From Anaerolineae bacterium (lineage in GTDB: Bacteria; Chloroflexota; Anaerolineae; Aggregatilineales; J027), in the NCBI GenBank assembly GCA_034437655.1, contig DAOTTU010000044.1, positions 265,584 to 329,583 on the forward strand: a stretch of DNA of 64,000 nucleotides. The letters run 5' to 3'. The notes below the pieces were generated by a model. The model worked only from the letters and a program-made list of their open reading frames with translations. It searched no databases and was not told the origin of the DNA. Position numbers and translations under genes: made by a program. Shown here piece by piece: positions 14,427-39,836 of this stretch. Each line of letters begins with the position of its first letter. The stretch's first letter is position 1.

Positions 14427-15758
14427 TTAGCCCAGAATCGGCTTGAGGTCGGGGTTGTCACAGGCACGGCGGCCGACCTTAGCCATATCAATCCAGTTGC
14501 CATGCTGTTTGATGCGAACCACATCCATCGTGAAGTCGGTGGTGGTGCCGCTGTCATTGCTAAAAAACTTTGAACCAACGCCATAAACGTCCACTGGCAC
14601 CTTGAGCTGCTCGAACAACTTAATCTTCTCCACTGAAAAACCACCTGTCGCTACGATCGCAATATCACGACAGTAATCAGCCGCAGCTTGATGTCCTTCT
14701 GTGGGAACATTCCACTGGTGCCAGGCATTGTCGAGGGCATCGCGCACTGTTTGCACCAAACGTGGAGTGACGCCCATATCAAGCGACCTGTCACCCAACG
14801 CTGGCACAGACACGTCCCGCATGGAACTAGCCGTGTCGAGGCGAACGCCGGTGAGCTTGAATTTTTGCGCGGCTGCGTCGTCACCATTGGCAAGGTGCGA
14901 CTGATAACGCTCAAACATCGCCTGCGCGACGGCCACTGACGTACCTACGCAATCATTATGAAAATCTACCAGTGCGATGCGTGGTACTTCCGGTGGCAAA
15001 ATATCAGCAAATTGCAACATTGAAGCCGGGGTGTCGCCCTGGAAAGTCGCGACAAATGCATGTGGCACTGTGCCGCCACCACTGCCAGACCACCACGCGC
15101 CCTGTGCATCCGTGCTGATTGCTGCTGAAACTTGCGTGCCGTGGTCATGGTTATAGCGCTGCACCCCGAGGTGATAGGCATAGCCATCTGCCGCCTGAGT
15201 TTGATGCAGGTCATACCGCGCCGGGAAAAACAGCACCCGTTTACCATTTGCCGCTGCCATGAGGTTGTACGTGTTCGTTGCAATGCGGCTGATACGTGTC
15301 AGTATTCCTAATGTCGGAGTTTCCAGCACGCCGAAATGTCGATACTTGCCGCGCACTTTCAACACAGGCTGCACCTTGAGCGGGTCGCCACCATACGACG
15401 TAAAGACGCCATCTTCGACCGCCTGCACTTCGAGCTGGTCAAAGGTGTTGGTGAAATTGCCATCAGCGTCGTATTCGCCCGTGCATTCACGCAAAATGGC
15501 AAGCGCAGCGTCCACCCCGCCAATCAGGGCACGCGGGCGGCGGCGTGTGAACCATTGCGCTTCAACTTCAATATCGCCAATGGCAACGCCCTGATGCGTA
15601 TAGTTGCGTTCGTGAAGGGTGTTCAGGATTTGGCGGACATTTTCAAAGTATTGGTCGGTGTAGTAGCCACGTCGCAAGCCCTCAACATCCAGTTGAAAAA
15701 TCGCAGCTGGCAAGCGTTGGCCGTCAAAAATGCTCATGAAATCGATGATTCCTTTCAA
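14427..15758 (-). CDS. pncB: Nicotinate phosphoribosyltransferase
   Basis: 443 aa. The N-terminus reads FDGQRLPAAIFQLDVEGLRRGYYTDQYF, typical of NAPRTase-subfamily proteins. The true start may be the internal Met (MSIFDG). Confidence 0.7.
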   Translation of the reverse strand: MKGIIDFMSIFDGQRLPAAIFQLDVEGLRRGYYTDQYFENVRQILNTLHERNYTHQGVAIGDIEVEAQWFTRRRPRALIGGVDAALAILRECTGEYDADGNFTNTFDQLEVQAVEDGVFTSYGGDPLKVQPVLKVRGKYRHFGVLETPTLGILTRISRIATNTYNLMAAANGKRVLFFPARYDLHQTQAADGYAYHLGVQRYNHDHGTQVSAAISTDAQGAWWSGSGGGTVPHAFVATFQGDTPASMLQFADILPPEVPRIALVDFHNDCVGTSVAVAQAMFERYQSHLANGDDAAAQKFKLTGVRLDTASSMRDVSVPALGDRSLDMGVTPRLVQTVRDALDNAWHQWNVPTEGHQAAADYCRDIAIVATGGFSVEKIKLFEQLKVPVDVYGVGSKFFSNDSGTTTDFTMDVVRIKQHGNWIDMAKVGRRACDNPDLKPILG

Positions 15759-16535: not shown

Positions 16536-17756
16536 TCAGAATCCAGGCCGGCGAGGCGGCGTGGGGTTGAAGACCTGCCACATAATGATCAGAATGCCAC
16601 CGATTACCCCAAGCCCAACAATAACTACTCCAACAGCCAGCGCGACAACACCGCCACTCAATGCATCATCGTCCTCATCTGGTGCTGTTGCCGCGAGGAG
16701 TATGCTGTCGCTTGTCACCGGTGGCTGGTCAGCGGCAGCGATGACAGTGGGTGCAATGGGTCGTGTGGCTGTCGTCGTTGGTGTGGGCGAGAGTGCAATC
16801 GTTGTAACTGTGCGGGTTGGTGTTGGGGGGATGGGGGTTGAAGTCGGCGCGGCGCGCCCGGCTTGCACAACGATTTCTTGCCCGCTGAAAATAGTATCGG
16901 TGTTGATAAGGTCGTTCAGTTCGCGCAGGGTGTTGAGCGGGACATCGTACGCCCGAGAGATAGCCCATAGGCTCTGTCCGGGCTGCACAATATGCACCAG
17001 CGCACCATCTGCACGTGTAACGGGGTCTGCAAGCACGGGAACTGCTGTTGCGGCTGGTGGCACATTATCACCGGGGCTATCGTTGGGTGGTGGGTTATTG
17101 TTGCCGGGTGGGGTGACTAACGTTAGCGCTGCATCGTCCCAGAACACATCTTGAAAGCGCATTCCCTGACTAGAGGTAAAGTAGGTGAACACTGTCATGC
17201 GGTTGCTGGTGGCCGTTGCATTCACGCTCAGGTATTCAAAGCTGCCCCAGTTGAACGGCGCACGAAAGCCACTCCATTGCACAGTGCCCGCAAAGGGGCT
17301 TGTCCCGCCCGCCGGGTCAATGCCGACACGCACCCGCCCACCAGATTCAGTGTCGCTGTAGGTCGAGTTTTCGGTGCGGCAGGCAAACTCAGCGTCGTCA
17401 CAGGTCCAGATGAGCGCAAAAATCCCAAATTGATAGGTTGCACCCGGCTGCACATCGACCGTCTGGTACCCACCCGCTGTAAATGAGGCGTAGTCACGGC
17501 GCAACCGCCACGAGTAAGGCGCTGAGCGGGTCAAGGCTCCCAGGCTTTCTTTGTCACTGTCGTCCGCATTGCCCCACAGCCCCCAACCAGACGGCACAGC
17601 CCCAACCCCCACTGGTGTCATCGCACCGTCAAAGCCGGGATTGGTGAGCAGGTTCGCACCCTGCGCTTGCACCACGTTGGGCGATGGCAATGGTGCCAGC
17701 GCAACTGCAAATGCACTCAGCGTCAACAAGATTATGATCGTACGAGGGGTGGTCAT
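16536..17756 (-). CDS. Secreted LysM-domain protein with a C-terminal TM anchor
   Basis: The ORF track start (GTG at 17777) lies inside the rpoB terminator U-tract. The ATG at 17756 gives the signal peptide MTTPRTIIILLTLSAFAVALAP. The LysM domain reads HIVQPGQSLWAISRAYDVPLNTLRELNDL. The C-terminus has a hydrophobic helix followed by RR. Confidence 0.7.
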   Translation of the reverse strand: MTTPRTIIILLTLSAFAVALAPLPSPNVVQAQGANLLTNPGFDGAMTPVGVGAVPSGWGLWGNADDSDKESLGALTRSAPYSWRLRRDYASFTAGGYQTVDVQPGATYQFGIFALIWTCDDAEFACRTENSTYSDTESGGRVRVGIDPAGGTSPFAGTVQWSGFRAPFNWGSFEYLSVNATATSNRMTVFTYFTSSQGMRFQDVFWDDAALTLVTPPGNNNPPPNDSPGDNVPPAATAVPVLADPVTRADGALVHIVQPGQSLWAISRAYDVPLNTLRELNDLINTDTIFSGQEIVVQAGRAAPTSTPIPPTPTRTVTTIALSPTPTTTATRPIAPTVIAAADQPPVTSDSILLAATAPDEDDDALSGGVVALAVGVVIVGLGVIGGILIIMWQVFNPTPPRRPGF

Positions 17757-17843: not shown

Positions 17844-20800
17844 TTAGCTGTCGTTGTTGTTGCCGCTGTTGTTGTTCAGGCTCAAAAGGCCGGTTTCAAC
17901 CTGTGGCGGTTTGTTGCGATCTTCATCACGCCCGAAGCGGATGATTTCATTATTCTCAGTGATAGCTTCTACGGCCAACCCGAGGCTTTGCAGCTCTTTC
18001 ACCAGCACACGGAAGCTCGCGGGAATGCCCGGTTCTTCGATGGCTTCGTCTTTGACGATGGCTTCGTAGGTCTTAACACGCCCCTGCACATCGTCGGACT
18101 TGACGGTGAGCATTTCTTGCAGGGTGTAAGCAGCACCATAGGCTTCCAACGCCCAGACTTCCATTTCCCCAAAGCGCTGGCCACCAAACTGTGCCTTACC
18201 ACCAAGCGGCTGCTGTGTGACGAGGCTGTAGGGGCCAGTCGAGCGGGCATGAACCTTGTCTTCAACGAGGTGAGCCAGCTTCAGCATGTGGATGATGCCA
18301 ACCGTTACCGACTGCTCAAAAGCACGGCCTGATTTGCCATCGTGGAGCTTCATCTTGCCATAGATCGGAACAGGATTACCCGTGCGGATTTCGATGCGGT
18401 CAGCCAGGTCACGGAGTTGGTCAAGGTCAAGCCCTGCGACTTCAACTTCTTCTTCAGTCTTGTCCTGAATCCACAGGCTAAGGCACGCGACCATAGCGTT
18501 ATAATCACGTTCTGCGCGTTCTTCAACGCTGAGTTCGCTAACGTCAAACGCCAGCAGTTTTTCAGGGTTGAAGCCTTCTTCGCGCAGCCATTCCGCCAGT
18601 ACTGCGCGGCGAGCGAAGTTTCTATTGAGCGCCAGCAATTCTTCGTCGTACTTGTCACCGATCCATTCTGCGATGTACAAGCCACGGACTTCGTTGTCGT
18701 CACGCAGGGTTTCGGTTGGGTAGTCTTCAGACTTCAGCCATTCCCATGCGCGATCACTGACGACGTCCCAGGCTTTGTCAACTAGCCAGGCGCGGCCAAG
18801 TTCTGCTTCAATTTCCGCTTCTTTCGCACCATCAAACACTGGCGTGATAGCGCGGAAGCCGAGGCGGTCCGCAGCCCAGCCAAGATGCGTTTCCAACACC
18901 TGCCCAACGTTCATACGACCGGGCACACCCGTCGGATTAAGCACGATTTCAACCGGGCGGCCATCTTCAAGGAAGGGCATGTCTTCAATCGGCACGATCA
19001 TCGAAATCACGCCTTTATTCCCGTGACGGCCGGCCATCTTGTCACCCTGAGTCAGCTTGCGTTTCTGTGCAACTGTGACGCGGACCATGCGTTCAACGCC
19101 GGCCGGTAGGTCGCGATGTTCTTCACGGTTGAAGACTTTCACATCAATGACCTTGCCCCGGTCGCCGTGTGGCAGCCGCAATGACGTATCTTTCACTTCG
19201 CGGGCTTTTTCACCAAAGATGGCACGCAGCAGTTTTTCTTCGGGGCTGAGTTCACGTTCACCTTTAGGGGTGATCTTCCCGACCAGAATGTCATTGGGTT
19301 TGACATCAGCACCGATGCGGATGATACCGAACTCATCCAGGTCTTTCACTGCGTCGCCAACGTTGGGAATGTCATAGGTGATTTCTTCAGGCCCCAGCTT
19401 GGTGTCGCGGGCTTCGACTTCATGTTTTTCAATGTGAATAGAGGTGAAGCGGTCTTCACGCACCAGCGCTTCGCTCAGCACAATCGCGTCTTCGTAGTTG
19501 CCACCTTCCCACGAGAGAAACGCTACCATCACGTCATGCCCCAGCGCCAGGTTGCCGTGTTGCGTACTGCTGCTGTCGGCAATGACCATGCCTTTTTCGA
19601 CACGCTGCCCCTTAGAAACCACCGGGCGCTGGTCGATGCATGTACTCTGGTTGGAACGGTTGTACTTGCGCAACTTGTAGATGTGGTCGCCATCGTCGTT
19701 GGTGATAACAATACGATCACCGACAACACTGGTCACCTCGCCAGACTGTTCAGAAACCATGATCTGCCCGGAGTCGTAAGCCGCATGGCCTTCCATACCC
19801 GTACTGACAATCGGCGTGTCTGGATTAAGCAGCGGCACCGCCTGACGCTGCATGTTCGAACCCATCAGCGCACGGTTGGCGTCATCATGTTCAAGGAACG
19901 GAATCAGCGACGCGGAAATACCGACAATCTGACGTGGGGCAATGTCCATCAGGTCGATGCGATCCACTCGTTCGATCAGGAATTTCTGGTAGTAGCGTGA
20001 GGACACACGGTCATCAACGAACTGACCACGCTCGTCCAGCTTGGCGTTGGCCTGGCTGATTCGAAAACGGTCTTCAGAGTCGGCCGACATATATTTGATG
20101 TCTGGTGTCACATAGGGTCGCACCGGAACAGTATCAATGCCCGCATCGCGGAAAGTGTTGAGCATGTCGTCGGTGATGATCTCGTTCTTCTCGTAGATCA
20201 CATCACCGTCGTCAGTTTCGTAGTCCTCGCCCAGCTTACGCCCCAACAAATCGGGATCATCAATGGGCAGTTCACGGTGGACAATGCGGTATGGTGTCTC
20301 GATAAACCCATAGGCATTCACGCGCCCATACGTCGCCAAACGCCCGATCAAACCAATGTTTGGGCCTTCTGGTGTTTCAATGGGGCAAATACGGCCATAG
20401 TGGCTGTGGTGGACGTCACGCACGTCAAAGCCAGCACGTTCACGCCGCAAACCGCCCGGCCCGAGTGCCGAAAGGGTGCGCTTGTGGGTCAGTTCGGCCA
20501 GCGGGTTCGTCTGTTCCATAAATTGGGAAAGCTGGCTGCTGCCAAAGAACTCGCGTACTGACGCCACAATCGGGCGAATATTCACCAGCGAGGTCGGCGT
20601 CAGGTTGTCACTTTCACGGATGGACATACGTTCCTTGACAACCCGTTCCATGCGGCGCAGACCGATGCGTAGCTTGTTCTGGATAAGTTCGCCTACTGTT
20701 TTGACACGGCGATTACCCAGATGGTCAACGTCATCGGGCTTTTCCACACGATTGTTAATGTGGATCATGCGCTCGACCAGCTTAACAATATCGTATTTGC

Positions 20801-21791
20801 TGATTGTGCGATGTTGCAGCGTGATAACGTCGTCCAGGCGTAGCCGCTGATTGAGCTTGTAGCGGCCAACACGCTCCAGGTCGTAGCGTCGCTGGTCAAA
20901 CAGTTGGCTTTCAAGATACTCACGAGCGTTTTCTAGCGTAGGGGGGTCGCCGGGGCGCATCTTTTTGTAAAACTCAAGGAGCGCAGCTTCAGCAACGGTT
21001 AGCTTGCCATCTTTGAGGTCAAACTGTGGCTCTTGTTTGATCGAACTCATAATATACGGATGATCATCGTCAGTATCAGATGTGCCATAGAGTTCAATCA
21101 ATTCTTCGTCGGTGCCGAGACGCGGAATCGGCAGATCGTCGGGGTACTCCATCCCATCTTCAACGGCCGCCAGCGCACGTAACAGCACCGTAACCGGGAC
21201 AGTGCGCTTGCGGTTGAACTTCAGGGTGATATAGTCGCTTTTGCGTGTTTCGAACTCCATCCACGCACCACGGTCAGGAATCATCTTCGCGGTGGCGAGG
21301 CTGCGGCCGGTGGTATGGTCTTCGTTGACGGCGAAGTAAACACCGGGGGAACGGATCAACTGACTGACGACAACACGTTCGGTTCCGTTGATGATGAAGG
21401 TGCCGTTTTCCGTCATCAGCGGGAAGTTGCCCAGGAAGATTTCGGACTCAATCACCTGGTCGCCGGCGTCGTGGTTGACCAGCGCAACACGGACATGCAG
21501 CGGGGCGGCATAGTCGATGTCGCGTTCCAGGCAAGTTTCTTCGTCATATTTGGCTTCTTCGAACCAGTAGTTGAGGTTGGTAAAGCCAGCAGCTTCGGCG
21601 TTCTTTCCAGGGAAGTAAAGTTTCAGGTTGCCGTTGAAACTTTCGATGGGGCTGATTTCATTAAATAGTTCAGACATGCCCTCGCGCAGGAACCAGTCGA
21701 AGGCGTCAAGCTGAATATCAATGAGCGATGGCAGACTCGTGATTTCACGAGTTCTAGCGTAACTTTTAGTTTCTCGCGTACGCTGCATCAT
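17844..21791 (-). CDS. rpoB: DNA-directed RNA polymerase subunit beta
   Basis: 1315 aa. Universal beta motifs are present, including [21 protein letters not shown]-like and [37 protein letters not shown]. Confidence 0.97.
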
Positions 21792-21865: not shown

Positions 21866-21894
21866 ATTATAAATGGAAAGTTTGAGCCTGTCAA
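21866..21894 (-). promoter_or_regulatory. Perfect consensus sigma-70-type promoter for rpoB
   Basis: The minus strand reads TTGACA (21894-21889), a 17-nt spacer, then TATAAT (21871-21866). This lies about 75 nt upstream of the rpoB ATG. Confidence 0.7.
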
Positions 21895-22017: not shown

Positions 22018-23586
22018 ATGCGAATGTCTGGACCACTTTCAAAAATCCGACGCACGCTCCTGCATCGTCCGTGGCGTTTATTGCGTCTGCTGCTGATACC
22101 GTTGCTTGGCTTCCTACTGTTGTCTGCTGCAACGGTTGGGGTTGTTGAAGCGACCGATGGTATGCAGGGCAACCGCTGCGTTGTTGAAAAAGACGAATAC
22201 ATTGAACATGATTTCTATTTCTATTGTTGGACTGTGGTGATCCGCGGCACGGTAGACGGCGACTTAATAGGTTTAGCCTCAGAAGTAGTCATTACGCAGG
22301 ACGCAACGGTTACTGGCGATGTCTGGATGGTAGGCGGGCAACTTTCTGTACGGGGTACGCTCGGTGATGATGTACGCTTTGCCGGGGCCGACCTCGACTT
22401 CATTGAATCCACAGTGTTTACCAATCCGCGCAGCAGTGTGACTACGCTGGCACTGAGTATGGAAATGAGCGAGGGTGTATGGCTGCCCAGTGACCTATCC
22501 ATGGTCGGGTACCAGGCGCTGATGTATGGTGACATGGGCGGCAATATTGACTTTCAGGGGCAACGGCTCGACATTCGTGGGCGGGTTAACGGTCAGGTGG
22601 ATGCTATCGTCGGTGATGCCCGTCAGGAAGTGAACCTGCGCACGATTCCTTTTGTGCCCTATTCGCTTCAGTTGCGCGACTATGGGCTCTATCTGGGTGA
22701 TGAATCACAAATTGACGGCGACCTGCGCTACGAAGCTGCCCAACCCACCAATGTTCCACGCGGCGCGGTGAACGGCACCATTAGCTATACACAAGTGCTT
22801 TCGCAGCAAGATATCACATTGGCCCGCCAACCACGGACGTTTTTTAGCATCCTGCGGACCTACGTCATTGAAGTGCTGCGTGACTTCATCCCGCTGGCGC
22901 TTGTTGGGGTGTTAGTGTTGCAGTTTGCCCCGACACTGATGACCGAAAGCGGACGCCGTATCCGTGAAAAAGCGCTGCCAGCGGTCAGTTGGGGGTTCAT
23001 GCTCTCTATTTTGTTTTTCCCGGTCGCGTTGCTGACTATTCTCGTGAGTATTGTGCTTGTTTTTCTGGTGACAGTCATCACGTTGAGTTCGCTGACGTTG
23101 CTGGTTGCTATGCTGTTGACTATTCTGAACCTGATTATGGTTTTCGGGTTTGGGTTTTTATTGATTTATCTGGGGCGAGTGGTGGCCTGCTATCTGGCGG
23201 GTGTGATGCTGATTCGTTGGCTGCGGTATTATATCGCCATGCGGAACCATGACCCCGACGACCCCCCCATCTACATCCCACCGATTCCTCCTGAATATCG
23301 TTGGACACTGCTTGCGCTGGGGACTGTACTTTATAGTTTGGTGGTAAACTTACCATTGCCACCGCCTGTGCCGACGATTGAACTCTTGATTGAAGCGCTG
23401 GCCGCTTTCGCAGGGTTGGGCGCGCTGTTTATGGTTGGGCGTGACATATGGCATCGTTACGAGTTACGCCAGGGCCGCTTGCAGCCACGCCGCCGCCTAC
23501 AATTTGAAAATGATATGTTTGACGAAGGCGAACGCACACTGGGGATGCAAAATCTTCCAGAAGGGTTTAAAGGCTTTGACGACTAA
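22018..23586 (+). CDS. Membrane protein with an N-terminal signal/anchor, a repetitive beta-helix-like (bactofilin/polymer-forming-like) extracytoplasmic region and a C-terminal polytopic domain
   Basis: 522 aa. Repetitive segments read VVIRGTVDGDLIGLASEVVITQDATVTGDVWMVGGQLSVRGTLGDDVRFAG. Several hydrophobic helices occupy the C-terminal half. Confidence 0.5.
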   Translation: MRMSGPLSKIRRTLLHRPWRLLRLLLIPLLGFLLLSAATVGVVEATDGMQGNRCVVEKDEYIEHDFYFYCWTVVIRGTVDGDLIGLASEVVITQDATVTGDVWMVGGQLSVRGTLGDDVRFAGADLDFIESTVFTNPRSSVTTLALSMEMSEGVWLPSDLSMVGYQALMYGDMGGNIDFQGQRLDIRGRVNGQVDAIVGDARQEVNLRTIPFVPYSLQLRDYGLYLGDESQIDGDLRYEAAQPTNVPRGAVNGTISYTQVLSQQDITLARQPRTFFSILRTYVIEVLRDFIPLALVGVLVLQFAPTLMTESGRRIREKALPAVSWGFMLSILFFPVALLTILVSIVLVFLVTVITLSSLTLLVAMLLTILNLIMVFGFGFLLIYLGRVVACYLAGVMLIRWLRYYIAMRNHDPDDPPIYIPPIPPEYRWTLLALGTVLYSLVVNLPLPPPVPTIELLIEALAAFAGLGALFMVGRDIWHRYELRQGRLQPRRRLQFENDMFDEGERTLGMQNLPEGFKGFDD

Positions 23587-23598
23587 GGAAATGCAACG

Positions 23599-24576
23599 GT
23601 GAATACATCTGCCCTGTCGCGCCGCTGGGTATCGCGGGCTGGGTTGCTGGCATTGACAGTCATTTTTGTTGAGATCATCGGCTGGTATCAGGCGGGTACC
23701 TATGATGGGCTGGATTGGCTGGTAGTGGTCATTGTGGATGGCGCATTGGTGCTGATGGTTGTGGACTTCATAGTGCGGTGGCACACAGGCAACTGGCTCA
23801 CTATATTGATTGCCAGCGGTATTTTCGGCGTTGGTCATGGTGCATTTGTGTCGCTTGGTTTGCAGGTTGACTTGCCGTTGAGCCTTGTGCTTTTTGGCAC
23901 AGCCATGCCGACGCTGATGTTTCTGGGTGCCTATTTCAGCTTCCAATTGCTGTATGTTGGGCATGAAGCCTGGGCGCGGTGGTGGCTGGTGGTGCCTTTG
24001 ATAGGCTTAGGACATGGCCTCTGGGTGCGGTGGCTGCCAGCGCTTGACGCGGTGCAATTAACTCCCCCACAACTGGCGACGATCTTGCCGCTGAGTGTTG
24101 TGTTGCTGGCTGGTGTAGCTGTGATAGCGTTGGTGTTGCCAGTACCTGCGCGAGTTGAACGCGAAGACTGGTTGCTGACACCGATTGAATGGGTGATGCT
24201 AGTGCTGGTGCCGCTGCTGGTGACGACTATGCTACGTGTACAAAACGATGAGTTGGTGCTGTTTCCGTTTCTACTGGCGTTGCTGATAATAGCCATCCTC
24301 AGCGCTTTACTATGGTTCTATCATCAACTGGCACTCCGTCCAGCATTTCAACTGGTGTTTCGCCCTCAGAATGTGCTGACGATTCGTTGGCTGATTGCAT
24401 TGGTACCTTTTGCCATCACCATCTGGTTCGGCTACGAACTCCCCGGCGAAGGGTCACCGCTACAGTTCACGATGCTACTGGGCACTCTGATTGCGTTTGG
24501 GATTGCCTGGCCACCGCTGGTGTCTGTATTTGTCAGCGTGCAAGCCTTTATTGAGCTTAGTCGTGAGGAGTATTGA
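23599..24576 (+). CDS. Polytopic membrane protein, function unknown
   Basis: 325 aa with a GTG start, beginning 12 nt after the previous stop. It is hydrophobic throughout. Confidence 0.6.
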   Translation: MNTSALSRRWVSRAGLLALTVIFVEIIGWYQAGTYDGLDWLVVVIVDGALVLMVVDFIVRWHTGNWLTILIASGIFGVGHGAFVSLGLQVDLPLSLVLFGTAMPTLMFLGAYFSFQLLYVGHEAWARWWLVVPLIGLGHGLWVRWLPALDAVQLTPPQLATILPLSVVLLAGVAVIALVLPVPARVEREDWLLTPIEWVMLVLVPLLVTTMLRVQNDELVLFPFLLALLIIAILSALLWFYHQLALRPAFQLVFRPQNVLTIRWLIALVPFAITIWFGYELPGEGSPLQFTMLLGTLIAFGIAWPPLVSVFVSVQAFIELSREEY

Positions 24577-25235: not shown

Positions 25236-25835
25236 ATGACCAATCCAGACGCGCAGTTTGCAGAAGTCGAACGTTTAATGAACGAAATTCGTGACGCTTT
25301 ATCCTGGACAGATGAAGCACGTGAAGTCAATGAGCTAAAAGCATTGCAATTATTGCTGGACCTGACACGCAAAATCCATGAAACGCGCAACCTGCACGAA
25401 CTCATCGCCTTGATTCTTGATAGCGCGATTGCCTTTGCAGATGCCAACCGTGCCTTTGTGATTATGCTGGAAGCGGATGGCGGCCTGCGGTTCAAAATGG
25501 GGCGTGACCACGAGAAGAACCACCTCAGCGCTGAGCAATGCACCCCTTCAACGGGCGTTATTGCCCGCACGCTCGAACGTGGCCGTACATTGCTGGTACC
25601 TGATGCACTTGCCGACCACGAGCTAAGCAAGCGAGAAAGTGTCCAGGAACTGAACTTGCGGACTGTGATGTGTTCACCGTTGCGCTTCAAGCAAAACACC
25701 TTTGGCGTACTTTATGTTGATAGTCAGCACTCGTTGGGGCGCTATTCAAGCTCACACGTGAACGTTATCGCTAGCCTTGCAGACCAGGCTGCTGTCGCGA
25801 TTCGCAATGCGCAAAAATTTGAAACACATGAGTAA
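25236..25835 (+). CDS. Stand-alone GAF-domain protein
   Basis: 199 aa. A GAF-like core is present (ILDSAIAFADANRAFVIMLEADGGLRFKMGRD...MCSPLRFKQNTFGVLYVDS). Confidence 0.6.
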   Translation: MTNPDAQFAEVERLMNEIRDALSWTDEAREVNELKALQLLLDLTRKIHETRNLHELIALILDSAIAFADANRAFVIMLEADGGLRFKMGRDHEKNHLSAEQCTPSTGVIARTLERGRTLLVPDALADHELSKRESVQELNLRTVMCSPLRFKQNTFGVLYVDSQHSLGRYSSSHVNVIASLADQAAVAIRNAQKFETHE

Positions 25836-25854
25836 TTCGGCGTGTGATCAATGG

Positions 25855-25884
25855 TTGCCAAGACAGCTACTCTTTCGTTATAGT
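25855..25884 (+). promoter_or_regulatory. Candidate promoter for the kinase-receiver-HTH gene
   Basis: TTGCCA, an 18-nt spacer, then TATAGT. It ends 34 nt before the GTG at 25918. Confidence 0.4.
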
Positions 25885-25917
25885 CTTCGCATGATTACAA
25901 GCGGTGTGTGAGGATCC

Positions 25918-27453
25918 GTGATGATCGGCCAAACATTGAGTGGACGCTATAGAATAGAAGAATTGATTGGCGAAGGGGCCACGGCGATTGTTTACCGGGC
26001 TACCGACCTGCGCCTACAGCGTCAGATAGCGGTAAAAGTGTTGCTGCCGCACGTAAATGACACAACTCGTAAGCGCTTCGAGCGTGAAGCCCACGCAGCG
26101 GCGCGGTTGAATCACCCGAACATCATGGCGATTTATGACTTTGCGGTGGATGGCAACTCCGAATATCTGGCGGTTGAACTGATTGAAGGCCGTGCCCTGT
26201 ACGAGTTCATCCCGGCGGAGCCTGAACTGGTCATTGAAGTAGGGTATCAAATTTGTGTGGCGCTGGAATATGCTCATCAGATTGGATTAATCCACCGTGA
26301 CATCAAGCCGGCGAACATCAACCTGACCAGCGCGAGCCAGATTAAGCTCATGGACTTTGGGCTGGCGATTCCGAAAACGGGTGATCAGAAGCGCCTGACT
26401 GCCAGCGGTACTATAATTGGCACGCCGGCCTATCTTTCCCCTGAACAGGCACAGGGGTTGCCGCTCGACCCGCGCACCGATATTTATTCAACAGGGATCG
26501 TGCTTTACGAAATGTTGACGGGTGTCTTGCCGTTTGATGCTGATGACATTGGCACCATCTTGCTGCAACAGGTCAAAAAGAAGGCCGAACCACCTTCTAA
26601 ACACAAGTCCAACATTCCAAAAGCGTTGGAAGATATCATCCTCAAAGCACTGGAAAAACGCCCTTCAGCACGTTTCCAAACCGCACACGAAATGGGCGAG
26701 GCATTGTATGACCTAAAGCGCAAGACCTCGGTGTCTGGGTTGGGTGAAGCGATTCAAGCCTCAGAAGAAAAGCAAGACAACACACCAGCACAAAGTGGTG
26801 GCGGTGATGATTTACGACTCGTCCTTGCAGATGACCATGTGCTGACACGCACCAGCCTCGCGTATTTCCTGAGCGACATTGACGGGATTGATGTTGTGGG
26901 TGAGGCGTCAAATGGTGAAGAGGCCTTCAAACTCATCGGCGAGCAAAATCCCGACGTGCTACTTCTGGACTTGAACATGCCGGGCACAAATGGTCTGGTG
27001 ATTTTGCCACAAATCCGTAAGGCCTACCCCAACGTCAAGGTTCTGGTTCTGACGGGCCGTGAAGAAAACTCAATGATTATGCGGGCACTGCGGGCTGGCG
27101 CACATGGCTACGTTTTAAAGACCAGTTCTGAAGACGACCTCGAAAAGTCTGTGCGTGAAGTTGCCACCGGGCGTCTGGTGCTTGGGTTTGGCGTGGCAGA
27201 GAAGCTGGTTGGTGGCTTGATTGATGATGAAGCTGCAAACCCACTGGATGCTGTACAGCGAGACATCTTGACGTTGGTTGCATCTGGGATGAAAGACGCA
27301 GATGTTGCACACCAGATGGGGATGCCAGAAGATGAAATGGTTGAAACACTCATGACAGCTATTGATGCGCTAGGCGTGACCTCGCGTACTGATGCCGCCC
27401 TGATGGCGTTGCGGGCCGGGTGGATTCGCCTTGAAGATGTGCAGCGGCTTTAA
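25918..27453 (+). CDS. Fusion protein: Hanks-type Ser/Thr kinase, then a receiver (REC) domain, then a LuxR/FixJ-type HTH
   Basis: 511 aa.
- Kinase motifs: GEGATAIVY, IAVKVL, HRDIKPANI, MDFGLA, AYLSPE.
- REC motifs: LADDH, LLLDLNMPG (Asp codon 26968-26970), VLVLTG, GYVLK.
- HTH segment: RDILTLVASGMKDADVAHQMGM...GVTSRTDAALMALRAGWI. Confidence 0.8.
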   Translation: MMIGQTLSGRYRIEELIGEGATAIVYRATDLRLQRQIAVKVLLPHVNDTTRKRFEREAHAAARLNHPNIMAIYDFAVDGNSEYLAVELIEGRALYEFIPAEPELVIEVGYQICVALEYAHQIGLIHRDIKPANINLTSASQIKLMDFGLAIPKTGDQKRLTASGTIIGTPAYLSPEQAQGLPLDPRTDIYSTGIVLYEMLTGVLPFDADDIGTILLQQVKKKAEPPSKHKSNIPKALEDIILKALEKRPSARFQTAHEMGEALYDLKRKTSVSGLGEAIQASEEKQDNTPAQSGGGDDLRLVLADDHVLTRTSLAYFLSDIDGIDVVGEASNGEEAFKLIGEQNPDVLLLDLNMPGTNGLVILPQIRKAYPNVKVLVLTGREENSMIMRALRAGAHGYVLKTSSEDDLEKSVREVATGRLVLGFGVAEKLVGGLIDDEAANPLDAVQRDILTLVASGMKDADVAHQMGMPEDEMVETLMTAIDALGVTSRTDAALMALRAGWIRLEDVQRL

Positions 27454-27481
27454 ACCTACGTTCGCTGGCGACAGGTGGCTC

Positions 27482-28621
27482 ATGACGTCGGTGTTCCTGC
27501 TGGTGGCACTGGTCACTGCAACGTCTGTGCCGCCACGCGACCACATTATCGCCCAACCGGGTGCGCCCTATCTACTGGCCACCACGACCGTTACCGATGA
27601 TGGATTTTTGCTCATTGATGTGGCAACGGGGGCAGTCCAAGCGCTGTCATTCGGCAATATAACGCATGTTTTTGGTGATTTTTCGCCAGATGGCTGCCAG
27701 ATTGTATTCAGCCTCGAACAACGTCCCAACAGTTACGATCTTTTTGTTGCCAATATTGACGGCTCTGGCTTACGACAGGTGATGTTTCCGGGTCGGTTGG
27801 CGGCCATAAACTACCGGGCCTTTGAGCCTGACTGGTCTCCCGATGGCACACGCATCGCCTTCACATTCATGCGCTATTATGACCCGCCCGACGAAGACCC
27901 TTACCGCCGTACCCATATTGCAACAGTACCAGCCACAGGTGGCGCACCAGATTTGTATTCCACCTCTGGATATGAGTTTAATCCGCGTTGGTCACCGGAT
28001 GGCAGTCAACTGGCTTATGTCTCTGAACAGCCGATTCTATTTGATACTGATGGTTCGCCTGTTGTCGTTGAAGAGGGTGATGAAGATGAGGTGCCGCGCT
28101 ACCCCGAAATATGGCTTGGCAACATCGCCGGGACTGAAAAACGTCGCCTCACCAACCTGGGCGAAATCGGTGCATTTAACCCGCGCTGGTCACCAGACGG
28201 CCGCTGGCTGGCGTATGTTATTCAACCCTACGAAAACAGTCATCGTCTACTGGTCAATAACCTTGAAACCGGCAGCATTCTGGCATTAAATCGCGATCTG
28301 GTTACGGTACTCGACTATGATTGGCGGCAGGACAGCGCACGTATTGCGGCGTCTATGCAAGGTATGCAAGATGTCCCACAAAATCGACTGTGGCAACTGA
28401 ATATTGTCCATCATGACGATACGAATGCGCGTCCGCTAGCGACAACAGAAGCCTATATGGACTATCCACGCTACTCGCCCGACGGCCGCTGGCTGGCATT
28501 GCGTAGCCAATATGAACTGACTGTGTTGCAAACGGGCAGCGACTCTATCCAGCATATGGGAATGCAGACCCGTCATAATAGTCCCCCGGCATGGTCTCCT
28601 GCATCATGTAACCATCCCTGA
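27482..28621 (+). CDS. TolB-like beta-propeller protein (PD40/WD40-like repeats), N-terminally anchored
   Basis: The ORF track start at 27431 overlaps the kinase gene. The ATG at 27482 gives MTSVFLLVALVTA. Repeats are FSPDGCQIVF, WSPDGTRIAF, WSPDGSQLAYVS, WSPDGRWLAYV and YSPDGRWLAL. Confidence 0.75.
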   Translation: MTSVFLLVALVTATSVPPRDHIIAQPGAPYLLATTTVTDDGFLLIDVATGAVQALSFGNITHVFGDFSPDGCQIVFSLEQRPNSYDLFVANIDGSGLRQVMFPGRLAAINYRAFEPDWSPDGTRIAFTFMRYYDPPDEDPYRRTHIATVPATGGAPDLYSTSGYEFNPRWSPDGSQLAYVSEQPILFDTDGSPVVVEEGDEDEVPRYPEIWLGNIAGTEKRRLTNLGEIGAFNPRWSPDGRWLAYVIQPYENSHRLLVNNLETGSILALNRDLVTVLDYDWRQDSARIAASMQGMQDVPQNRLWQLNIVHHDDTNARPLATTEAYMDYPRYSPDGRWLALRSQYELTVLQTGSDSIQHMGMQTRHNSPPAWSPASCNHP

Positions 28622-37547: not shown

Positions 37548-38225
37548 ATGGCTGAGCAAGTACTGGTTATAGAGGATGAAACAAACATCGCGCAGTTTTT
37601 AGAGCGTGGATTGATCTACGAAGGCTATCGTGTCGATGTCGCTTATGATGGACAAAGTGGTCTTAGTATGGCTCGCGATAACCCACCAGATATGGTCATC
37701 CTTGACTGGATGTTGCCGGGTATTGATGGTATAGAAGTCTGCCGACGTCTGCGGGCTGCCAGCGAAGTCCCCATTTTGATGTTGACCGCCAAAGACGCAG
37801 TGAACGACCGGGTGAGCGGGCTGGATGCTGGCGCGGATGATTATCTTGTCAAACCATTTTCGTTCGAAGAATTGCTGGCACGTGTGCGGGCATTACTACG
37901 ACGTAGCAACACCACCTCTCGCCCCGAAATTCTACGCTTTGCAGACCTGACGCTAGACACAGGCACCCACCGTGCCATGCGTGGTGAGCGGGCTATTGAC
38001 CTCACTGCGAAAGAATATGAACTACTAGAGCTGTTCATGCGTAACCCACGTCAGGTGTTAACCCGTGACGTTATCTTTGACCGCGTTTGGGGCTACGATT
38101 TTGGTGGTGAAAGTAACATCATCGAAGTGTATGTGCGTTACTTACGGCAGAAGACAGAGGCTGAAAACGAACCACGTTTGATTCATACAGTACGTGGCGT
38201 GGGATATGTATTGCGCGAAGACTGA
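37548..38225 (+). CDS. OmpR-family response regulator
   Basis: 225 aa. The receiver shows VILDWMLPG and the winged helix shows [11 protein letters not shown]. Confidence 0.9.
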
Positions 38226-38453
38226 TATTTCGTGGAGTGGCGTGCTAGCTACAAAGTTTAAATGCAGATTATAGGCACAAATTGAGGTAGCTTGTATATC
38301 CACACTGCAACGCGATGGTGACACTGGTAGAGTAGGTGAATATGGCGGTATAAAGCGGCTTAAAGCGATTGTTGTTCTCATCTATCGCTCAGGTACTCAT
38401 GCTATAGTCAACATAATTTGACGACCTTAAGTGTAGGTCTGTGGGGCTTCTGC

Positions 38454-39836
38454 ATGACCATCCGTTTACGCCTGACACTGTTGTATTCAGCATTGCTTAT
38501 TGCCACTATTGTACTCTTTGGGGCTGCTGTATATGGTGTCTTGGATCGTACGTTGCGCACCCAGGTTGATGAAGACCTGGAACAAGTTCTTGATGACACC
38601 GAAAGCGACATTCGCAACAACATCACTGATGAAGGCGAACTCACTGTCGCACCCTTGCCGCTCAACACCTTTCAGTCGGAAAATACCTATGTACAACTGT
38701 GGGTAGTTGAAGATGAATTGCTGGTCAACCTATCGCGCAGTCTGGGTACCTACAACCAACCGCTGGACGCCAGTGCTTTTGACCATGACGATGACACCGT
38801 CTCAAATGTAACCATCGAAGACAATGACTTGCGGGTGCGTACTCGTGCCATTGACGCCAATGGTGACACGATCGCGTACATACAGGCGGCGTCATCCCTT
38901 AAACCTGTTACAGACGCCACCGGACAGCTTTTTGTGATTATGGGAGCGCTTGGCGGTGGGCTCGTTGTGATTTCGGGTGTCGTAGGTTATTTTATGGCGC
39001 TCAATGCACTCAAACCAATCAGCAAAATCAATGAAACTGCGCGAGCCATTGTTGCGGCTGAAGACTTAAATCGGCGTGTCCCTTATGCCAATACGCACGA
39101 CGAACTTGGCGCAATGACTTCAACCATCAACAACATGTTGGAACGTCTCGAAAAGTTGTTCAATGCTCAGCAGCGGTTTGTAGCAGACATCTCACACGAG
39201 CTACGAACCCCCATCACCGCGATCCAGGGTCACGTTGAACTCATGCAACGCTTCGGCTATGACCAGGATTCAATGGATGCTGTGGCACGTTCTACCGTCC
39301 GCATGGTGCAACTTGTCGAAGACCTGATGTTGCTGGCTAATGCTGATATTGGACGTATGACCCCCCATAAGTCCACCGTCCACCTGGACACCCTGTTGCT
39401 GCATGCTTACGAAAAGGCGCATCAGCACAATAAAGAGGGCGTGCAGGTGCATCTGGGCAATGTCGAACAGGTGATGGTCGAAGGTGACCCCTCACTCCTT
39501 TCGCAACTACTCGAAAATCTAGTCAATAACGCCATCTGCTATACCGAGGCCGATGGGCGTGTTACGCTCAGCGTACATCGTAACCACAAGTGGGTTGAAA
39601 TCAGTGTACAGGATACGGGCGTCGGCATTGCTGAAAAAGACCTGCACCAGATTTTTGATCGGTTCTACCGTGTGGACACTGCCCGCGCCCGGCCGGGCGG
39701 TGGGTCGGGGTTGGGGCTGTCTATTGCAATGTGGATCGCCCAGGCGCATGATGGCGAATTGACCGTGCAAAGCAAAGTCGGTGAAGGTAGCACCTTCACA
39801 GTACGCTTGCCCTACCACACACCCTCTAGCAATTGA
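38454..39836 (+). CDS. Sensor histidine kinase (2 TM, HAMP, HisKA, HATPase_c)
   Basis: The ORF track gives 38418..39836. The ATG at 38454 gives MTIRLRLTLLYSALL. The H-box is SHELRTP. The N and G boxes are NLVNNAICYT, DTGVGI and GGSGLGLSI. Confidence 0.85.
   Translation: MTIRLRLTLLYSALLIATIVLFGAAVYGVLDRTLRTQVDEDLEQVLDDTESDIRNNITDEGELTVAPLPLNTFQSENTYVQLWVVEDELLVNLSRSLGTYNQPLDASAFDHDDDTVSNVTIEDNDLRVRTRAIDANGDTIAYIQAASSLKPVTDATGQLFVIMGALGGGLVVISGVVGYFMALNALKPISKINETARAIVAAEDLNRRVPYANTHDELGAMTSTINNMLERLEKLFNAQQRFVADISHELRTPITAIQGHVELMQRFGYDQDSMDAVARSTVRMVQLVEDLMLLANADIGRMTPHKSTVHLDTLLLHAYEKAHQHNKEGVQVHLGNVEQVMVEGDPSLLSQLLENLVNNAICYTEADGRVTLSVHRNHKWVEISVQDTGVGIAEKDLHQIFDRFYRVDTARARPGGGSGLGLSIAMWIAQAHDGELTVQSKVGEGSTFTVRLPYHTPSSN

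What the first reader, a model, noticed from the sequence alone, without database searches (positions are those of the whole stretch)
25918..27453. Single polypeptide fusing an apparently active Ser/Thr kinase to a complete NarL/FixJ-type response regulator
One uninterrupted ORF encodes three parts in order.
- A Hanks-type kinase with all catalytic signatures: glycine loop GEGATAIVY, AVK lysine, HRDIKPAN, DFG, SPE.
- A receiver domain with a full acidic pocket: DD pair, the phospho-acceptor Asp in LLLDLNMPG, Thr in VLVLTG and Lys in YVLK.
- A LuxR-type HTH.

A roughly 35-aa linker joins the kinase to the receiver. Receiver-HTH regulators are normally free-standing partners of histidine kinases. 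Here one is tethered to a eukaryotic-like kinase, and no histidine kinase is adjacent. This would put His-Asp and Ser/Thr signalling into one DNA-binding protein, either as cis Ser/Thr phosphorylation of the regulator or as a receiver-gated kinase. I cannot say how rare this architecture is without a database search.
Basis: partly seen in the sequence, partly recalled or inferred. Interest (0 to 1): 0.55.

Follow-up and report, generated by a model that had tools for sequence, protein, structure and literature searches.

The report
Kinase fused to a response regulator
This is a real, conserved Chloroflexota gene that joins an intact Ser/Thr kinase to an intact two-component receiver and a worn-down DNA-binding-like tail, so it most likely turns a His-Asp phosphorylation signal into Ser/Thr phosphorylation rather than acting as a transcription factor.

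Summary
The ORF is real (25918/25921..27453, 510-511 aa). The identical protein occurs on at least 8 independently assembled contigs. At least 120 database clusters, 54-100% identical and about 500 aa long, share the architecture. All named ones are Chloroflexota, so it is not a frameshift artefact and not rare in that lineage.

The Hanks kinase is confirmed (Pfam 166 bits; TM-score 0.90 to PknB) and so is the receiver (96.6 bits). Every catalytic and acidic-pocket residue is invariant across the family.

The C-terminal domain has the NarL/FixJ fold. In this protein it misses Pfam's GerE cut-off (18.1 against 23.5 bits). Its recognition helix has no basic residue (net charge -5), and the NarL DNA-contact positions are V/E/M. 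That helix is the least conserved structured element of the family, whereas helix alpha10 is almost invariant. In a genuine OmpR-type regulator from the same window, the recognition helix is invariant.

No histidine kinase lies next to the gene in any of the seven contexts examined.

Best reading (inferred): a receiver-gated Ser/Thr kinase, with the HTH remnant serving dimerisation. Phosphorylation of the regulator by its own kinase remains possible, because T402 aligns with VraR T106 and T491 with DosR T198.

I found no publication on this architecture. It is a new variant of known kinds, of moderate interest.

The parts
25921..27453 (+). Gene for the kinase-receiver-HTH-like protein. The ATG at 25921 gives 510 aa; the GTG at 25918 would give 511 aa. 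Residue numbers in this report count from 25918. Stop codon TAA at 27451-27453.
25910..25914 (+). GAGGA Shine-Dalgarno, 6 nt before the ATG at 25921
   Evidence: read directly from the sequence
25939..26703 (+). Hanks-type Ser/Thr kinase domain (aa 8-262). Key residues: G-loop 18-23, K40 (26035-26037), E57, HRDIKPAN 126-133 (26293-26316), DFG 146-148 (26353-26361). R10/L33/D74 align with the PknB N-lobe dimer-interface residues R10/L33/D76.
   Evidence: Pfam 166.1 bits. PknB E=7e-58 with residue alignment. Foldseek TM-score 0.90. Residues invariant in the family.
26389..26445 (+). Activation loop through the SPE motif (aa 158-176, KRLTASGTIIGTPAYLSPE). T161 and S163 align with PknB T171 and T173. 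T161 and T169 are invariant.
   Evidence: low pLDDT over 156-165
26713..26808 (+). Flexible, unconserved kinase-receiver tether (aa 266-297)
   Evidence: pLDDT below 50 for 274-295; entropy 3.29 bits
26812..27171 (+). CheY-like receiver domain (aa 299-418). Key residues: D305/D306 (26830-26835), phospho-acceptor D351 (26968-26970), T379, Y398, K401, all invariant or nearly so. T402 (116 of 120 sequences) aligns with VraR T106.
   Evidence: Pfam 96.6 bits
27172..27243 (+). Conserved alpha6-like linker between receiver and HTH-like domain (aa 419-442; L422, G423 and E428 invariant)
27244..27450 (+). LuxR/GerE-fold four-helix domain plus a short C-terminal helix (aa 443-511). It scores below the Pfam GerE cut-off in this protein.
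27328..27372 (+). Degenerate 'recognition helix' alpha9 (aa 471-485, EDEMVETLMTAIDAL). It has no basic residue and net charge -5. NarL K188/V189/K192 correspond to V475/E476/M479. It is the least conserved structured element (2.11 bits).
27385..27414 (+). Helix alpha10 (aa 490-499, RTDAALMALR), nearly invariant at 0.72 bits. This is the dimerisation helix in NarL/DosR-type regulators. T491 aligns with DosR T198.
   Evidence: PMC4601284
25236..25835 (+). Upstream GAF-only protein (199 aa). It is syntenic with the kinase gene only in the close clade (69-76% identical relatives). It is a possible partner, not a family-wide one.
   Evidence: absent
27482..28621 (+). Downstream PD40/TolB-like beta-propeller protein (379 aa), starting 28 nt after the stop. 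It is syntenic in part of the close clade.
   Evidence: replaced

Best explanation
The gene encodes a cytoplasmic signalling protein that is conserved as one unit in Anaerolineae-type Chloroflexota. It has three parts: a catalytically competent PknB-like Ser/Thr kinase, a flexible tether of about 30 residues, and a phospho-accepting NarL/FixJ-type receiver. A LuxR-fold tail follows, and it has lost the features of a DNA reader.

Proposed mechanism:
1. An unlinked histidine kinase (or a small phosphodonor) phosphorylates D351.
2. The phosphorylated receiver dimerises, helped by the invariant alpha10 and C-terminal tail of the HTH remnant.
3. This brings two kinase domains together through the conserved PknB-type N-lobe interface (R10/L33/D74).
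4. The kinases phosphorylate each other's activation loops at T161/S163.
5. The active kinase then phosphorylates targets on Ser/Thr.

In effect it is a response regulator whose output is a Hanks kinase, converting a His-Asp signal into a Ser/Thr signal.

Shown here: the architecture, the intact motifs, the folds, the pattern of conservation, and the absence of an adjacent histidine kinase. Inferred: every step of the mechanism, the identity of the phosphodonor, and the substrates.
For: - Real and stable fusion. The identical protein is on at least 8 contigs. At least 120 full-length relatives exist. Pairwise identities of the kinase and the receiver correlate at r=0.83, and kinase with HTH at r=0.77.
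- Active kinase. All catalytic residues are invariant. The alignment to PknB places T161/S163 on T171/T173 and R10/L33/D74 on R10/L33/D76. PDB entries for PknB L33D, L33E and D76A mutants appear among the structural matches.
- Phospho-accepting receiver. D305, D306, D351, T379 and K401 are invariant and Y398 nearly so. The fold matches DesR and VraR receivers at TM-score about 0.9.
- HTH not under DNA-reading constraint. alpha9 entropy is 2.11 bits, against 0.90 for the kinase, 1.08 for the receiver and 0.72 for alpha10. Exposed alpha9 positions reach 2.5-3.7 bits, close to the disordered linker at 3.29.
- alpha9 charge. It is -5 here and -2.2 to -3.0 on average in the family, against +3 in NarL, VraR and LiaR. 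GerE is below its cut-off here.
- Control. In the OmpR-type regulator of the same window, the DNA-binding domain (0.26 bits) is more conserved than the receiver (0.40), and the recognition helix is invariant.
Against: - There are no biochemical data.
- The inter-domain geometry is not predicted with confidence (pTM 0.55), and no dimer model could be made.
- GerE is still detectable in 25 of 31 relatives, with a best E-value of 8e-11. Some relatives carry 2-3 basic residues in alpha9. DNA binding may therefore persist in parts of the family, or use atypical contacts.
- The R10/L33/D76-type residues are common among PknB-like kinases, so their conservation is weak evidence for regulation by dimerisation.
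- No partner histidine kinase was identified.
- Having the output domain N-terminal to the receiver is unusual for response regulators.
- Conserved T402 and T491 sit at positions that kinases phosphorylate in VraR and DosR. That fits the rival cis-phosphorylation model as well.
Confidence: 0.45

Rival explanations
1. Kinase-controlled transcription factor. The receiver-HTH is the output and binds DNA. The tethered kinase phosphorylates it on Ser/Thr in cis or in trans within a dimer, for example at T402 or T491, to tune dimerisation or DNA binding. D351 phosphorylation is a second input.
For: - Trans precedents exist in the same regulator family. Stk1 phosphorylates VraR at T106/T119/T175/T178, and PknH phosphorylates DosR at T198/T205 (PMC4601284).
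- T402 is Thr in 116 of 120 sequences and aligns with VraR T106.
- T491 is Thr or Ser in 102 of 120 sequences and aligns with DosR T198.
- The NarL/FixJ fold is retained, and GerE is detectable in 25 of 31 relatives.
- The disordered tether of about 30 residues would let the kinase reach the regulator.
Against: - The recognition helix lacks basic residues in this protein, and the DNA-contact positions are not conserved in the family.
- alpha9 evolves almost as fast as the disordered linker, whereas a genuine regulator in the same genome has an invariant recognition helix.
- The positions equivalent to VraR T175 and T178 are P/D and E/L/D, so they are not phosphorylatable here.
- A Thr after the conserved Lys, and the 'SRT' cap of alpha10, are common in NarL-family proteins that no kinase is known to target.
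Confidence: 0.25
2. Mixed family. The ancestral protein was a DNA-binding, kinase-modulated regulator, and that function persists in clades with a good GerE match. In the query's clade (at least 68% identical) the HTH has decayed and only the kinase output remains.
For: - GerE is hit in 25 of 31 relatives but not in the query or its closest relatives.
- Mean HTH net charge is -6.1 in the close clade and -2.4 elsewhere. Basic residues at positions 466, 484 and 488 are lost in the query.
Against: - Even outside the close clade, alpha9 is net acidic (mean -2.2) with about one basic residue.
- The NarL K188-equivalent position is never K or R among the six commonest residues (T39, A39, D10, M9, V7, S5 of 120).
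Confidence: 0.2
3. Scaffold or pseudo-regulator. The receiver-HTH module is neither phosphorylated on Asp in vivo nor DNA-binding. It serves only as a constitutive dimerisation or localisation domain for a constitutively active kinase.
For: - No cognate histidine kinase lies nearby in seven contexts.
- alpha10 and the C-terminal tail are nearly invariant.
Against: Strict invariance of the whole acidic pocket, T379, K401 and Y398 across 120 sequences is hard to explain without phosphoryl chemistry. Receivers that have given up Asp phosphorylation typically lose these residues (aspartate-less receivers, PMC4395418).
Confidence: 0.07
4. Artefact. Two adjacent genes, a kinase and a NarL-type regulator, were joined by an assembly or sequencing error.
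For: None found. One long-read metagenome-assembled copy (L014) shows a local frame break near aa 417-424. That is the opposite kind of error.
Against: - The identical 510-aa product occurs on at least 8 contigs from NCBI, JGI and ENA samples.
- At least 120 clusters have the same length and full coverage.
- The domains co-evolve.
Confidence: 0.01

Closest known systems
PknB/PrkC/Stk1-type bacterial Hanks Ser/Thr kinases (M. tuberculosis PknB catalytic domain, PDB 1MRU, 1O6Y, 3ORI)
   Same: About 40% identity over 256 residues, E=7e-58, TM-score 0.90. The numbering is the same for R10, L33 and K40. It is an RD kinase with two activation-loop Thr/Ser at the PknB T171/T173 positions and an N-lobe dimer-interface triad.
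   Different: No transmembrane helix and no PASTA sensor. The NCBIfam PASTA-kinase model matches only its positions 1-275 of 563 and scores 324.6 against a cut-off of 450. A receiver plus HTH-like module takes the place of the sensor.
NarL/FixJ-family response regulators (NarL 1A04, VraR 4GVP, LiaR 5HEV, DesR 4LDZ, DosR 3C3W)
   Same: Receiver plus alpha6 linker plus four-helix LuxR-fold domain. The NarL alignment covers 300-495 at E=3e-29. The Foldseek alignment covers the whole chains. The acidic pocket is complete.
   Different: It is not free-standing and has no cognate kinase gene beside it. The recognition helix is acidic and unconserved. GerE and all NCBIfam equivalog cut-offs are missed.
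Trans cross-talk between Ser/Thr kinases and NarL-family regulators (Stk1-VraR, PknH-DosR; review PMC4601284)
   Same: The same two protein classes interact. The Thr positions hit in VraR (T106) and DosR (T198) are conserved here as T402 and T491.
   Different: In those systems the kinase and the regulator are separate proteins and the regulators bind DNA. Here they are one polypeptide and DNA binding is doubtful.
Response regulators with enzymatic outputs, and eukaryotic receiver-to-kinase relays (S. pombe Mcs4 regulator activating a MAPKKK, PMC3829895, abstract)
   Same: The logic of the favoured model: Asp phosphorylation of a receiver switches on an enzyme, in the eukaryotic case a Ser/Thr kinase cascade.
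   Different: In yeast the receiver and the kinase are separate proteins and the kinase belongs to the MAPKKK class. Here the kinase is a fused bacterial PknB-like kinase lying N-terminal to the receiver. This is an analogy of function, not homology of the system.
Cyanobacterial dual kinases (HstK-type: Ser/Thr kinase + GAF + histidine kinase; PMC2176072)
   Same: One polypeptide combines Hanks-type and two-component signalling modules.
   Different: Those proteins carry the transmitter (HisKA/HATPase), not the receiver. No HisKA or HATPase domain is present here.

Membership tests
Hanks-type (eukaryotic-like) Ser/Thr protein kinase | Pfam Pkinase (PF00069) above the gathering score | tested here: met
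   166.1 bits against 31.7, residues 11-256
Hanks-type (eukaryotic-like) Ser/Thr protein kinase | Catalytic signature: G-loop, beta3 Lys, alphaC Glu, HRD Asp, catalytic-loop Asn, DFG, (A/S)PE | tested here: met
   G18-x-G20, K40, E57, H126-R-D128, N133, D146-F-G, S174-P-E. All are invariant in 31 and in 120 relatives. Aligned to PknB.
Hanks-type (eukaryotic-like) Ser/Thr protein kinase | Bilobal kinase fold | tested here: met
   Foldseek against PknB 5U94 and 1O6Y: target-normalised TM-score 0.90, rmsd about 2 A
Hanks-type (eukaryotic-like) Ser/Thr protein kinase | Phosphotransfer activity on Ser/Thr | not testable with these tools
   Needs an autophosphorylation assay with a K40M control
Stk1/PknB family PASTA-domain kinase (NCBIfam NF033483) | Full-length match including the transmembrane helix and PASTA repeats, above the curated cut-off | tested here: not met
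   324.6 bits against a cut-off of 450. Only profile positions 1-275 of 563 are matched.
CheY-like receiver (REC) domain | Pfam Response_reg above the gathering score | tested here: met
   96.6 bits against 30.2, residues 302-412
CheY-like receiver (REC) domain | Conserved quintet: two acidic residues after beta1, phospho-acceptor Asp at the end of beta3, Thr/Ser at the end of beta4, Lys at the end of beta5 | tested here: met
   D305, D306, D351, T379 and K401 are invariant in the family
CheY-like receiver (REC) domain | Asp phosphorylation by a histidine kinase or small phosphodonor | not testable with these tools
   No histidine kinase gene is adjacent in seven contexts. The only one in the window is paired with an OmpR-type regulator.
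NarL/FixJ (LuxR-type HTH) response-regulator transcription factor | Receiver followed by a four-helix LuxR/GerE-fold domain | tested here: met
   The AlphaFold model of residues 290-511 (pLDDT 88) aligns over about 205-210 columns with LiaR, VraR, ChrA, DesR, RcsB and NarL, with E-values down to 2e-17
NarL/FixJ (LuxR-type HTH) response-regulator transcription factor | Pfam GerE (PF00196) above the gathering score | tested here: not met
   No hit at E<=0.01 on the full protein. 18.1 bits on the C-terminus alone and 15.4 bits on the receiver-HTH fragment, against a cut-off of 23.5. Hit at E<=1e-3 in 25 of 31 relatives.
NarL/FixJ (LuxR-type HTH) response-regulator transcription factor | NCBIfam equivalog cut-offs (NarL, UvrY/GacA, MctR, MadR and others) | tested here: not met
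   The best is NarL at 120.4 bits against 250
NarL/FixJ (LuxR-type HTH) response-regulator transcription factor | Basic or polar DNA-contact residues in recognition helix alpha9 (NarL K188, V189, K192; that these contact bases is from memory of the NarL-DNA structure 1JE8) | tested here: not met
   They correspond to V475, E476 and M479. There are no basic residues in alpha9 and the net charge is -5, against +3 in NarL, VraR and LiaR.
NarL/FixJ (LuxR-type HTH) response-regulator transcription factor | Recognition helix conserved among orthologues | tested here: not met
   alpha9 entropy is 2.11 bits, the highest of any structured element. In the control OmpR-type regulator from the same window the recognition helix is invariant.
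NarL/FixJ (LuxR-type HTH) response-regulator transcription factor | Sequence-specific DNA binding | not testable with these tools
   Needs EMSA, DAP-seq or ChIP-seq
HstK-type dual Ser/Thr-histidine kinase | HisKA and HATPase_c domains in the same polypeptide | tested here: not met
   No such Pfam hit

The most novel reading that the evidence does not exclude
A natural, class-wide converter from His-Asp to Ser/Thr signalling: a response regulator whose output domain is a Hanks-type kinase. The ancestral LuxR-type HTH has been stripped of DNA reading and reused as a dimerisation device that switches the kinase on. If true, bacteria have a fused equivalent of the eukaryotic relay from receiver to Ser/Thr kinase.
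Probability: 0.4. Interest if true: 0.65.

Novelty: new variant of a known kind. Interest (0 to 1): 0.5.

Why it matters
Cross-talk between two-component systems and Hanks-type kinases is known only between separate proteins. There it is hard to study, because the kinases have many targets.

A covalent fusion conserved across many Chloroflexota would be a simpler model. Both phosphorylation chemistries are intact, and the DNA-binding surface is visibly decaying. Such a protein could be used to test how Asp phosphorylation and Ser/Thr phosphorylation gate each other.

It would also add a protein kinase to the list of response-regulator outputs. Finally, it shows that automatic labels such as 'DNA-binding CsgD/NarL family regulator' on these proteins are probably wrong about function.

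Tried and rejected
- **Frameshift or assembly artefact.** Rejected. The identical product is on at least 8 contigs and there are at least 120 full-length relatives.
- **L073 as a distant member outside Chloroflexota** (32% identity over 2-499 by tblastn). Rejected. Its ORF is a 729-aa protein whose C-terminal two-thirds show no receiver or HTH similarity to the query (read from its translation, it looks like kinase + membrane segment + TPR-like region, but I did not run a domain scan on it).
- **The search of protein representatives to size the family.** Uninformative. The top 150 are almost all multi-kinase proteins, and only P0124 has the kinase-receiver-HTH order.
- **A conserved partner gene or cognate histidine kinase.**
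  - MTase-GAF-gene-(PD40)-HEAT-Band7-ABC is kept only in relatives at least 69% identical.
  - Other clades have a different conserved neighbourhood.
  - No histidine kinase is adjacent anywhere.
  - A hybrid histidine kinase plus a single receiver lies 3.5 kb away, on the opposite strand, in L004. It is only a lead.
- **Whole-domain net charge as a test for DNA binding.** Dropped. VraR and LiaR HTH domains are about 0 and -2. I used recognition-helix residues and conservation instead.
- **Defence-system kinases** (MADS6, BREX PglW hits in NCBIfam). These match the kinase domain only and fall far below their cut-offs.
- **Literature.** Nine searches found no paper on a Pkinase + Response_reg + GerE protein. 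Galperin's 2006 and 2010 classifications of response regulators are not held in the library. I therefore cannot exclude a brief mention there.
- **Promoter and terminator scan of 21700-30000.** Counts are near shuffle expectation. The 10/12 promoter-like site at 25855-25884 is not evidence.
Full report
**1. Observation**

The ORF listing returns one ORF at 25918..27453 on the + strand, 511 aa, starting at GTG. A GAGGA Shine-Dalgarno sits at 25910-25914. It lies 6 nt before the ATG at 25921 and only 3 nt before the GTG. Public gene calls give a 510-aa product (P0001), so ATG 25921 is the likelier start.

Pfam gives Pkinase at residues 11-256 (E=1.3e-48, 166.1 bits, cut-off 31.7). It gives Response_reg at 302-412 (E=1.3e-27, 96.6 bits, cut-off 30.2).

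- GerE is not reported at E<=0.01 on the full protein.
- It scores 18.1 bits on the isolated C-terminus and 15.4 bits on the receiver-HTH fragment, both under the 23.5-bit cut-off.
- The fold is nevertheless present. The NCBIfam NarL model aligns residues 299-497 to profile positions 7-210 of 216.
- PDB NarL 1A04 aligns 300-495.
- An AlphaFold2 model of residues 290-511 (pLDDT 88.2) matches full-length LiaR, VraR, ChrA, DesR, Spr1814, RcsB and NarL over about 205-210 columns, with E-values down to 2e-17.

**2. Not an artefact, and not rare**

The identical protein is encoded on at least 8 contigs. They come from an NCBI metagenome-assembled genome (GCA_964490715.1), a JGI metagenome (3300012009) and an ENA microbial-mat metagenome.

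The search for homologous proteins lists 120 clusters at 90% identity, which is the display limit. Of these, 119 are 497-555 aa long with 99-100% coverage; the exception is P0030 (665 aa, 51% coverage). All are 54-100% identical and carry Pkinase plus Response_reg, and many also carry GerE. All named sources are Chloroflexota: Anaerolineae, Anaerolineales, Aggregatilineales including the cultured Aggregatilinea lenta, and Phototrophicales.

Pairwise identities of the kinase part correlate with those of the receiver (r=0.83) and of the HTH part (r=0.77). The three parts have therefore evolved together as one gene.

The closest named relative of this gene (76%) and of a neighbouring regulator (96%) is a 'Phototrophicales bacterium' genome. 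The window thus probably comes from a related hot-spring or mat Chloroflexota organism.

**3. Anatomy**

AlphaFold2 on the full protein (pLDDT 83.7, pTM 0.55) gives three confident folded blocks. Low-confidence segments lie at 156-165 (activation loop), 274-295 (tether) and 425-438 (receiver-HTH linker).

*Kinase*
- The kinase block superposes on PknB at TM-score 0.90.
- The HMMER alignment to PknB is ungapped over 99-201 with an offset of 10. T161 and S163 therefore fall on PknB T171 and T173.
- In the N-lobe, R10, L33 and K40 have identical numbers, and D74 falls on D76.
- From my own knowledge, T171/T173 are the PknB activation-loop phosphosites and R10/L33/D76 line its back-to-back N-lobe dimer. 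The PDB titles for L33D, L33E and D76A mutants are consistent with that.
- All of these residues are invariant in the family, as are K40, D128, N133, DFG and SPE.

*Receiver*
- D305, D306, D351, T379 and K401 are invariant, and Y398 is nearly so.

**4. The HTH-like domain does not look like a DNA reader**

In the alignment to NarL, the recognition helix TESTVKVHVKHMLKKM corresponds to PEDEMVETLMTAIDAL. NarL K188, V189 and K192 map to V475, E476 and M479. Their role as base contacts is from my memory of the NarL-DNA structure.

Across 120 relatives the residue counts are:

| Position | Commonest residues (count) |
|---|---|
| 475 | T39, A39, D10, M9, V7, S5 |
| 476 | R28, A23, E22 |
| 479 | M51, I29, K19 |

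Mean column entropy by element:

| Element | Entropy (bits) |
|---|---|
| alpha9 (recognition helix) | 2.11 |
| Kinase | 0.90 |
| Receiver | 1.08 |
| alpha10 | 0.72 |
| Disordered tether | 3.29 |

- alpha9 is the least conserved structured element.
- Its exposed positions (475, 476, 477, 480, 484) reach 2.5-3.7 bits, close to the disordered tether. Its buried positions (474, 478, 482, 485) stay conserved.
- alpha9 carries no basic residue here and has net charge -5. The family mean is -2.2 to -3.0. NarL, VraR and LiaR are each +3.
- alpha10 and the tail 'ALRAGWIxLDDL' are almost invariant.
- GerE is still detected in 25 of 31 relatives (best E=8e-11), but not in the query's close clade.

*Control.* I ran the same analysis on the OmpR-type regulator at 37548..38225 and its 119 closest relatives. 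They span the same lineages, and some lie on the same contigs. There the DNA-binding domain (0.26 bits) is more conserved than the receiver (0.40 bits), and the recognition helix is invariant. The order of conservation is therefore reversed in the fusion family.

**5. Genomic context**

Within +/-10 kb there is no histidine kinase, PP2C phosphatase or FHA-domain gene.

The only histidine kinase in the 64-kb window is at 38418..39836 (HAMP-HisKA-HATPase). It sits beside its own OmpR-type regulator. I scanned 34 of the window's larger ORFs with Pfam and took the genes at 15920-37453 from the precomputed annotation; nothing else relevant turned up. Three ORFs near the right-hand end (60574..61614, 61617..62609 and 62773..63585) were not scanned.

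Two different neighbourhoods are conserved.
- The order methyltransferase - GAF-only protein - this gene - (PD40 propeller) - HEAT - Band7 - two ABC genes is kept in relatives 69-76% identical.
- In A. lenta, L089 and L004-L006 the gene is instead followed by a conserved protein of about 207 aa with no Pfam match. A GNAT gene and a class A PBP lie nearby.
- In L004-L006, L088 and L089 (but not A. lenta, L086) it is preceded by a divergently transcribed, lipoprotein-like gene.

No neighbour is family-wide, so the gene behaves as a self-contained 'orphan'.

In L004 a hybrid histidine kinase (PAS-GAF-HisKA-HATPase-REC) and a single receiver lie 3.5 kb upstream on the other strand. Receiver-like matches sit at the same place in L005 and L006. 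This is a lead, not evidence.

**6. Mechanism**

The facts to explain:
- an invariant, apparently active RD kinase with PknB-type activation-loop and dimer-interface residues;
- an invariant phospho-accepting receiver;
- a LuxR-fold tail whose DNA-facing surface drifts while its dimerisation helix is fixed;
- a floppy tether;
- no linked histidine kinase.

The simplest reading is a response regulator whose output is the kinase. D351 phosphorylation drives receiver and alpha10 dimerisation. That brings the kinase domains together for trans-autophosphorylation at T161/S163, much as ligand-driven dimerisation does in PknB-type receptor kinases. All steps are inferred. I put this at about 0.45.

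The main rival (0.25) keeps the regulator as the output and has the kinase phosphorylate it.
- In its favour, T402 (116 of 120 sequences) aligns with VraR T106, and T491 (Thr or Ser in 102 of 120) aligns with DosR T198. Both are documented kinase target sites (PMC4601284; alignments).
- Against it is the state of the recognition helix.
- Also against it, the positions equivalent to VraR T175 and T178 are P/D and E/L/D.

A mixed-family scenario (0.2) and a pure scaffold role (0.07) are also listed. The scaffold role sits badly with the strictly conserved acidic pocket. The two phosphorylation routes are not mutually exclusive.

**7. Comparison with known systems, and novelty**

- The kinase is a member of the Hanks/PknB-like class, but not of the PASTA-kinase family: 324.6 bits against a cut-off of 450, with only the catalytic half matched.
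- The receiver is a canonical REC domain.
- The receiver-HTH module has the NarL/FixJ fold. It fails the family's sequence cut-offs and its DNA-contact features, so I do not file the protein as a NarL/FixJ transcription factor.
- Functionally the nearest analogues are response regulators with enzymatic outputs, and the eukaryotic relay in which a receiver protein activates a MAPKKK (PMC3829895, abstract).
- The nearest hybrid precedent is the cyanobacterial kinase-GAF-histidine-kinase class (PMC2176072). That class carries the transmitter, not the receiver.
- Other kinase-receiver combinations exist in the databases: P0149 (kinase-receiver-kinase) and P0169 (receiver-kinase-kinase).
- Nine full-text searches found no description of this architecture. 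Two classic classifications of response regulators were not available to me.

**Verdict**

This is a real, widespread but apparently unstudied family. It is a new variant built from two well-known kinds. Interest is moderate (0.5).

Noticed in passing
window 37548..38225 (+) and 38418..39836 (+): A canonical OmpR-type response regulator (JGI label 'MprA') next to a HAMP-HisKA-HATPase histidine kinase. The regulator is unusually conserved: 83-100% identity across its 120 closest clusters in the same Chloroflexota lineages, with an invariant recognition helix. It evolves much more slowly than the kinase fusion in the same genomes (96% against 76%, 89% against 72%, 89% against 69% on shared contigs).
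   Followed up: partly
window 21894..21866 (-), upstream of rpoB at 17844..21791 (-): A perfect sigma-70 consensus (TTGACA, 17 nt, TATAAT; 12 of 12) sits about 75 nt upstream of the rpoB start. The gene downstream of rpoB is a LysM protein (16536..17756), not rpoC.
   Followed up: no
window 25236..25835 (+): A stand-alone 199-aa GAF protein with no output domain lies immediately upstream of the kinase gene. The order methyltransferase-GAF-kinase is kept in relatives 69-76% identical. It could be a small-molecule-binding partner or a substrate.
   Followed up: partly
L004 9611..10240; L086 7624..8244; L089 8578..9201; also L005 and L006: A conserved protein of about 207 aa with no Pfam match (47-56% identical between genomes) lies directly downstream of, and in the same direction as, the family gene in the Aggregatilineales/Anaerolineae clade. 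A GNAT gene and a class A PBP follow on the opposite strand. A divergently transcribed lipoprotein-like gene (about 285-324 aa) lies upstream in L004-L006, L088 and L089. None of these has a homologue in the window.
   Followed up: partly
L004 619..3993 (-) and 4079..4459 (-): A hybrid histidine kinase (PAS-GAF-HisKA-HATPase-REC, 1124 aa) and a single-domain receiver lie 3.5-7 kb upstream of the family gene on the other strand. Receiver-like matches occur at the same position in L005 and L006. This is a possible phosphorelay source for D351 in that clade.
   Followed up: partly
L014 9265..9287: The family gene in one genome assembly (MFD05442.bin.2.222) splits into two overlapping tblastn segments near aa 417-424. 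This suggests a local frameshift, probably a sequencing error.
   Followed up: no
P0149 (819 aa) and P0169 (1100 aa): Other kinase-receiver combinations exist in public data: kinase-receiver-kinase and receiver-kinase-kinase. Many proteins carry 2-6 tandem Hanks kinase domains.
   Followed up: no
window 1085..2913 (-) and 14427..15758 (-): A putative kynurenine-pathway pair: a 'Cyclase' family protein, the family that includes kynurenine formamidase, and a kynureninase-like aminotransferase. A weak quinolinate phosphoribosyltransferase-like ORF (26.6 bits, just under its 27-bit cut-off) lies further on. Together they hint at NAD synthesis from tryptophan.
   Followed up: no
window 27431..27481: The mechanical ORF for the PD40 propeller gene starts at TTG 27431 and would overlap the kinase gene by 23 nt. 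Public gene calls start it at ATG 27482, which leaves a 28-nt gap.
   Followed up: partly
window 22018..24576 (+): A 522-aa protein with faint bactofilin and DUF8173 matches, and a 325-aa protein with no Pfam match, precede the methyltransferase-GAF-kinase run. They are syntenic in close relatives.
   Followed up: no
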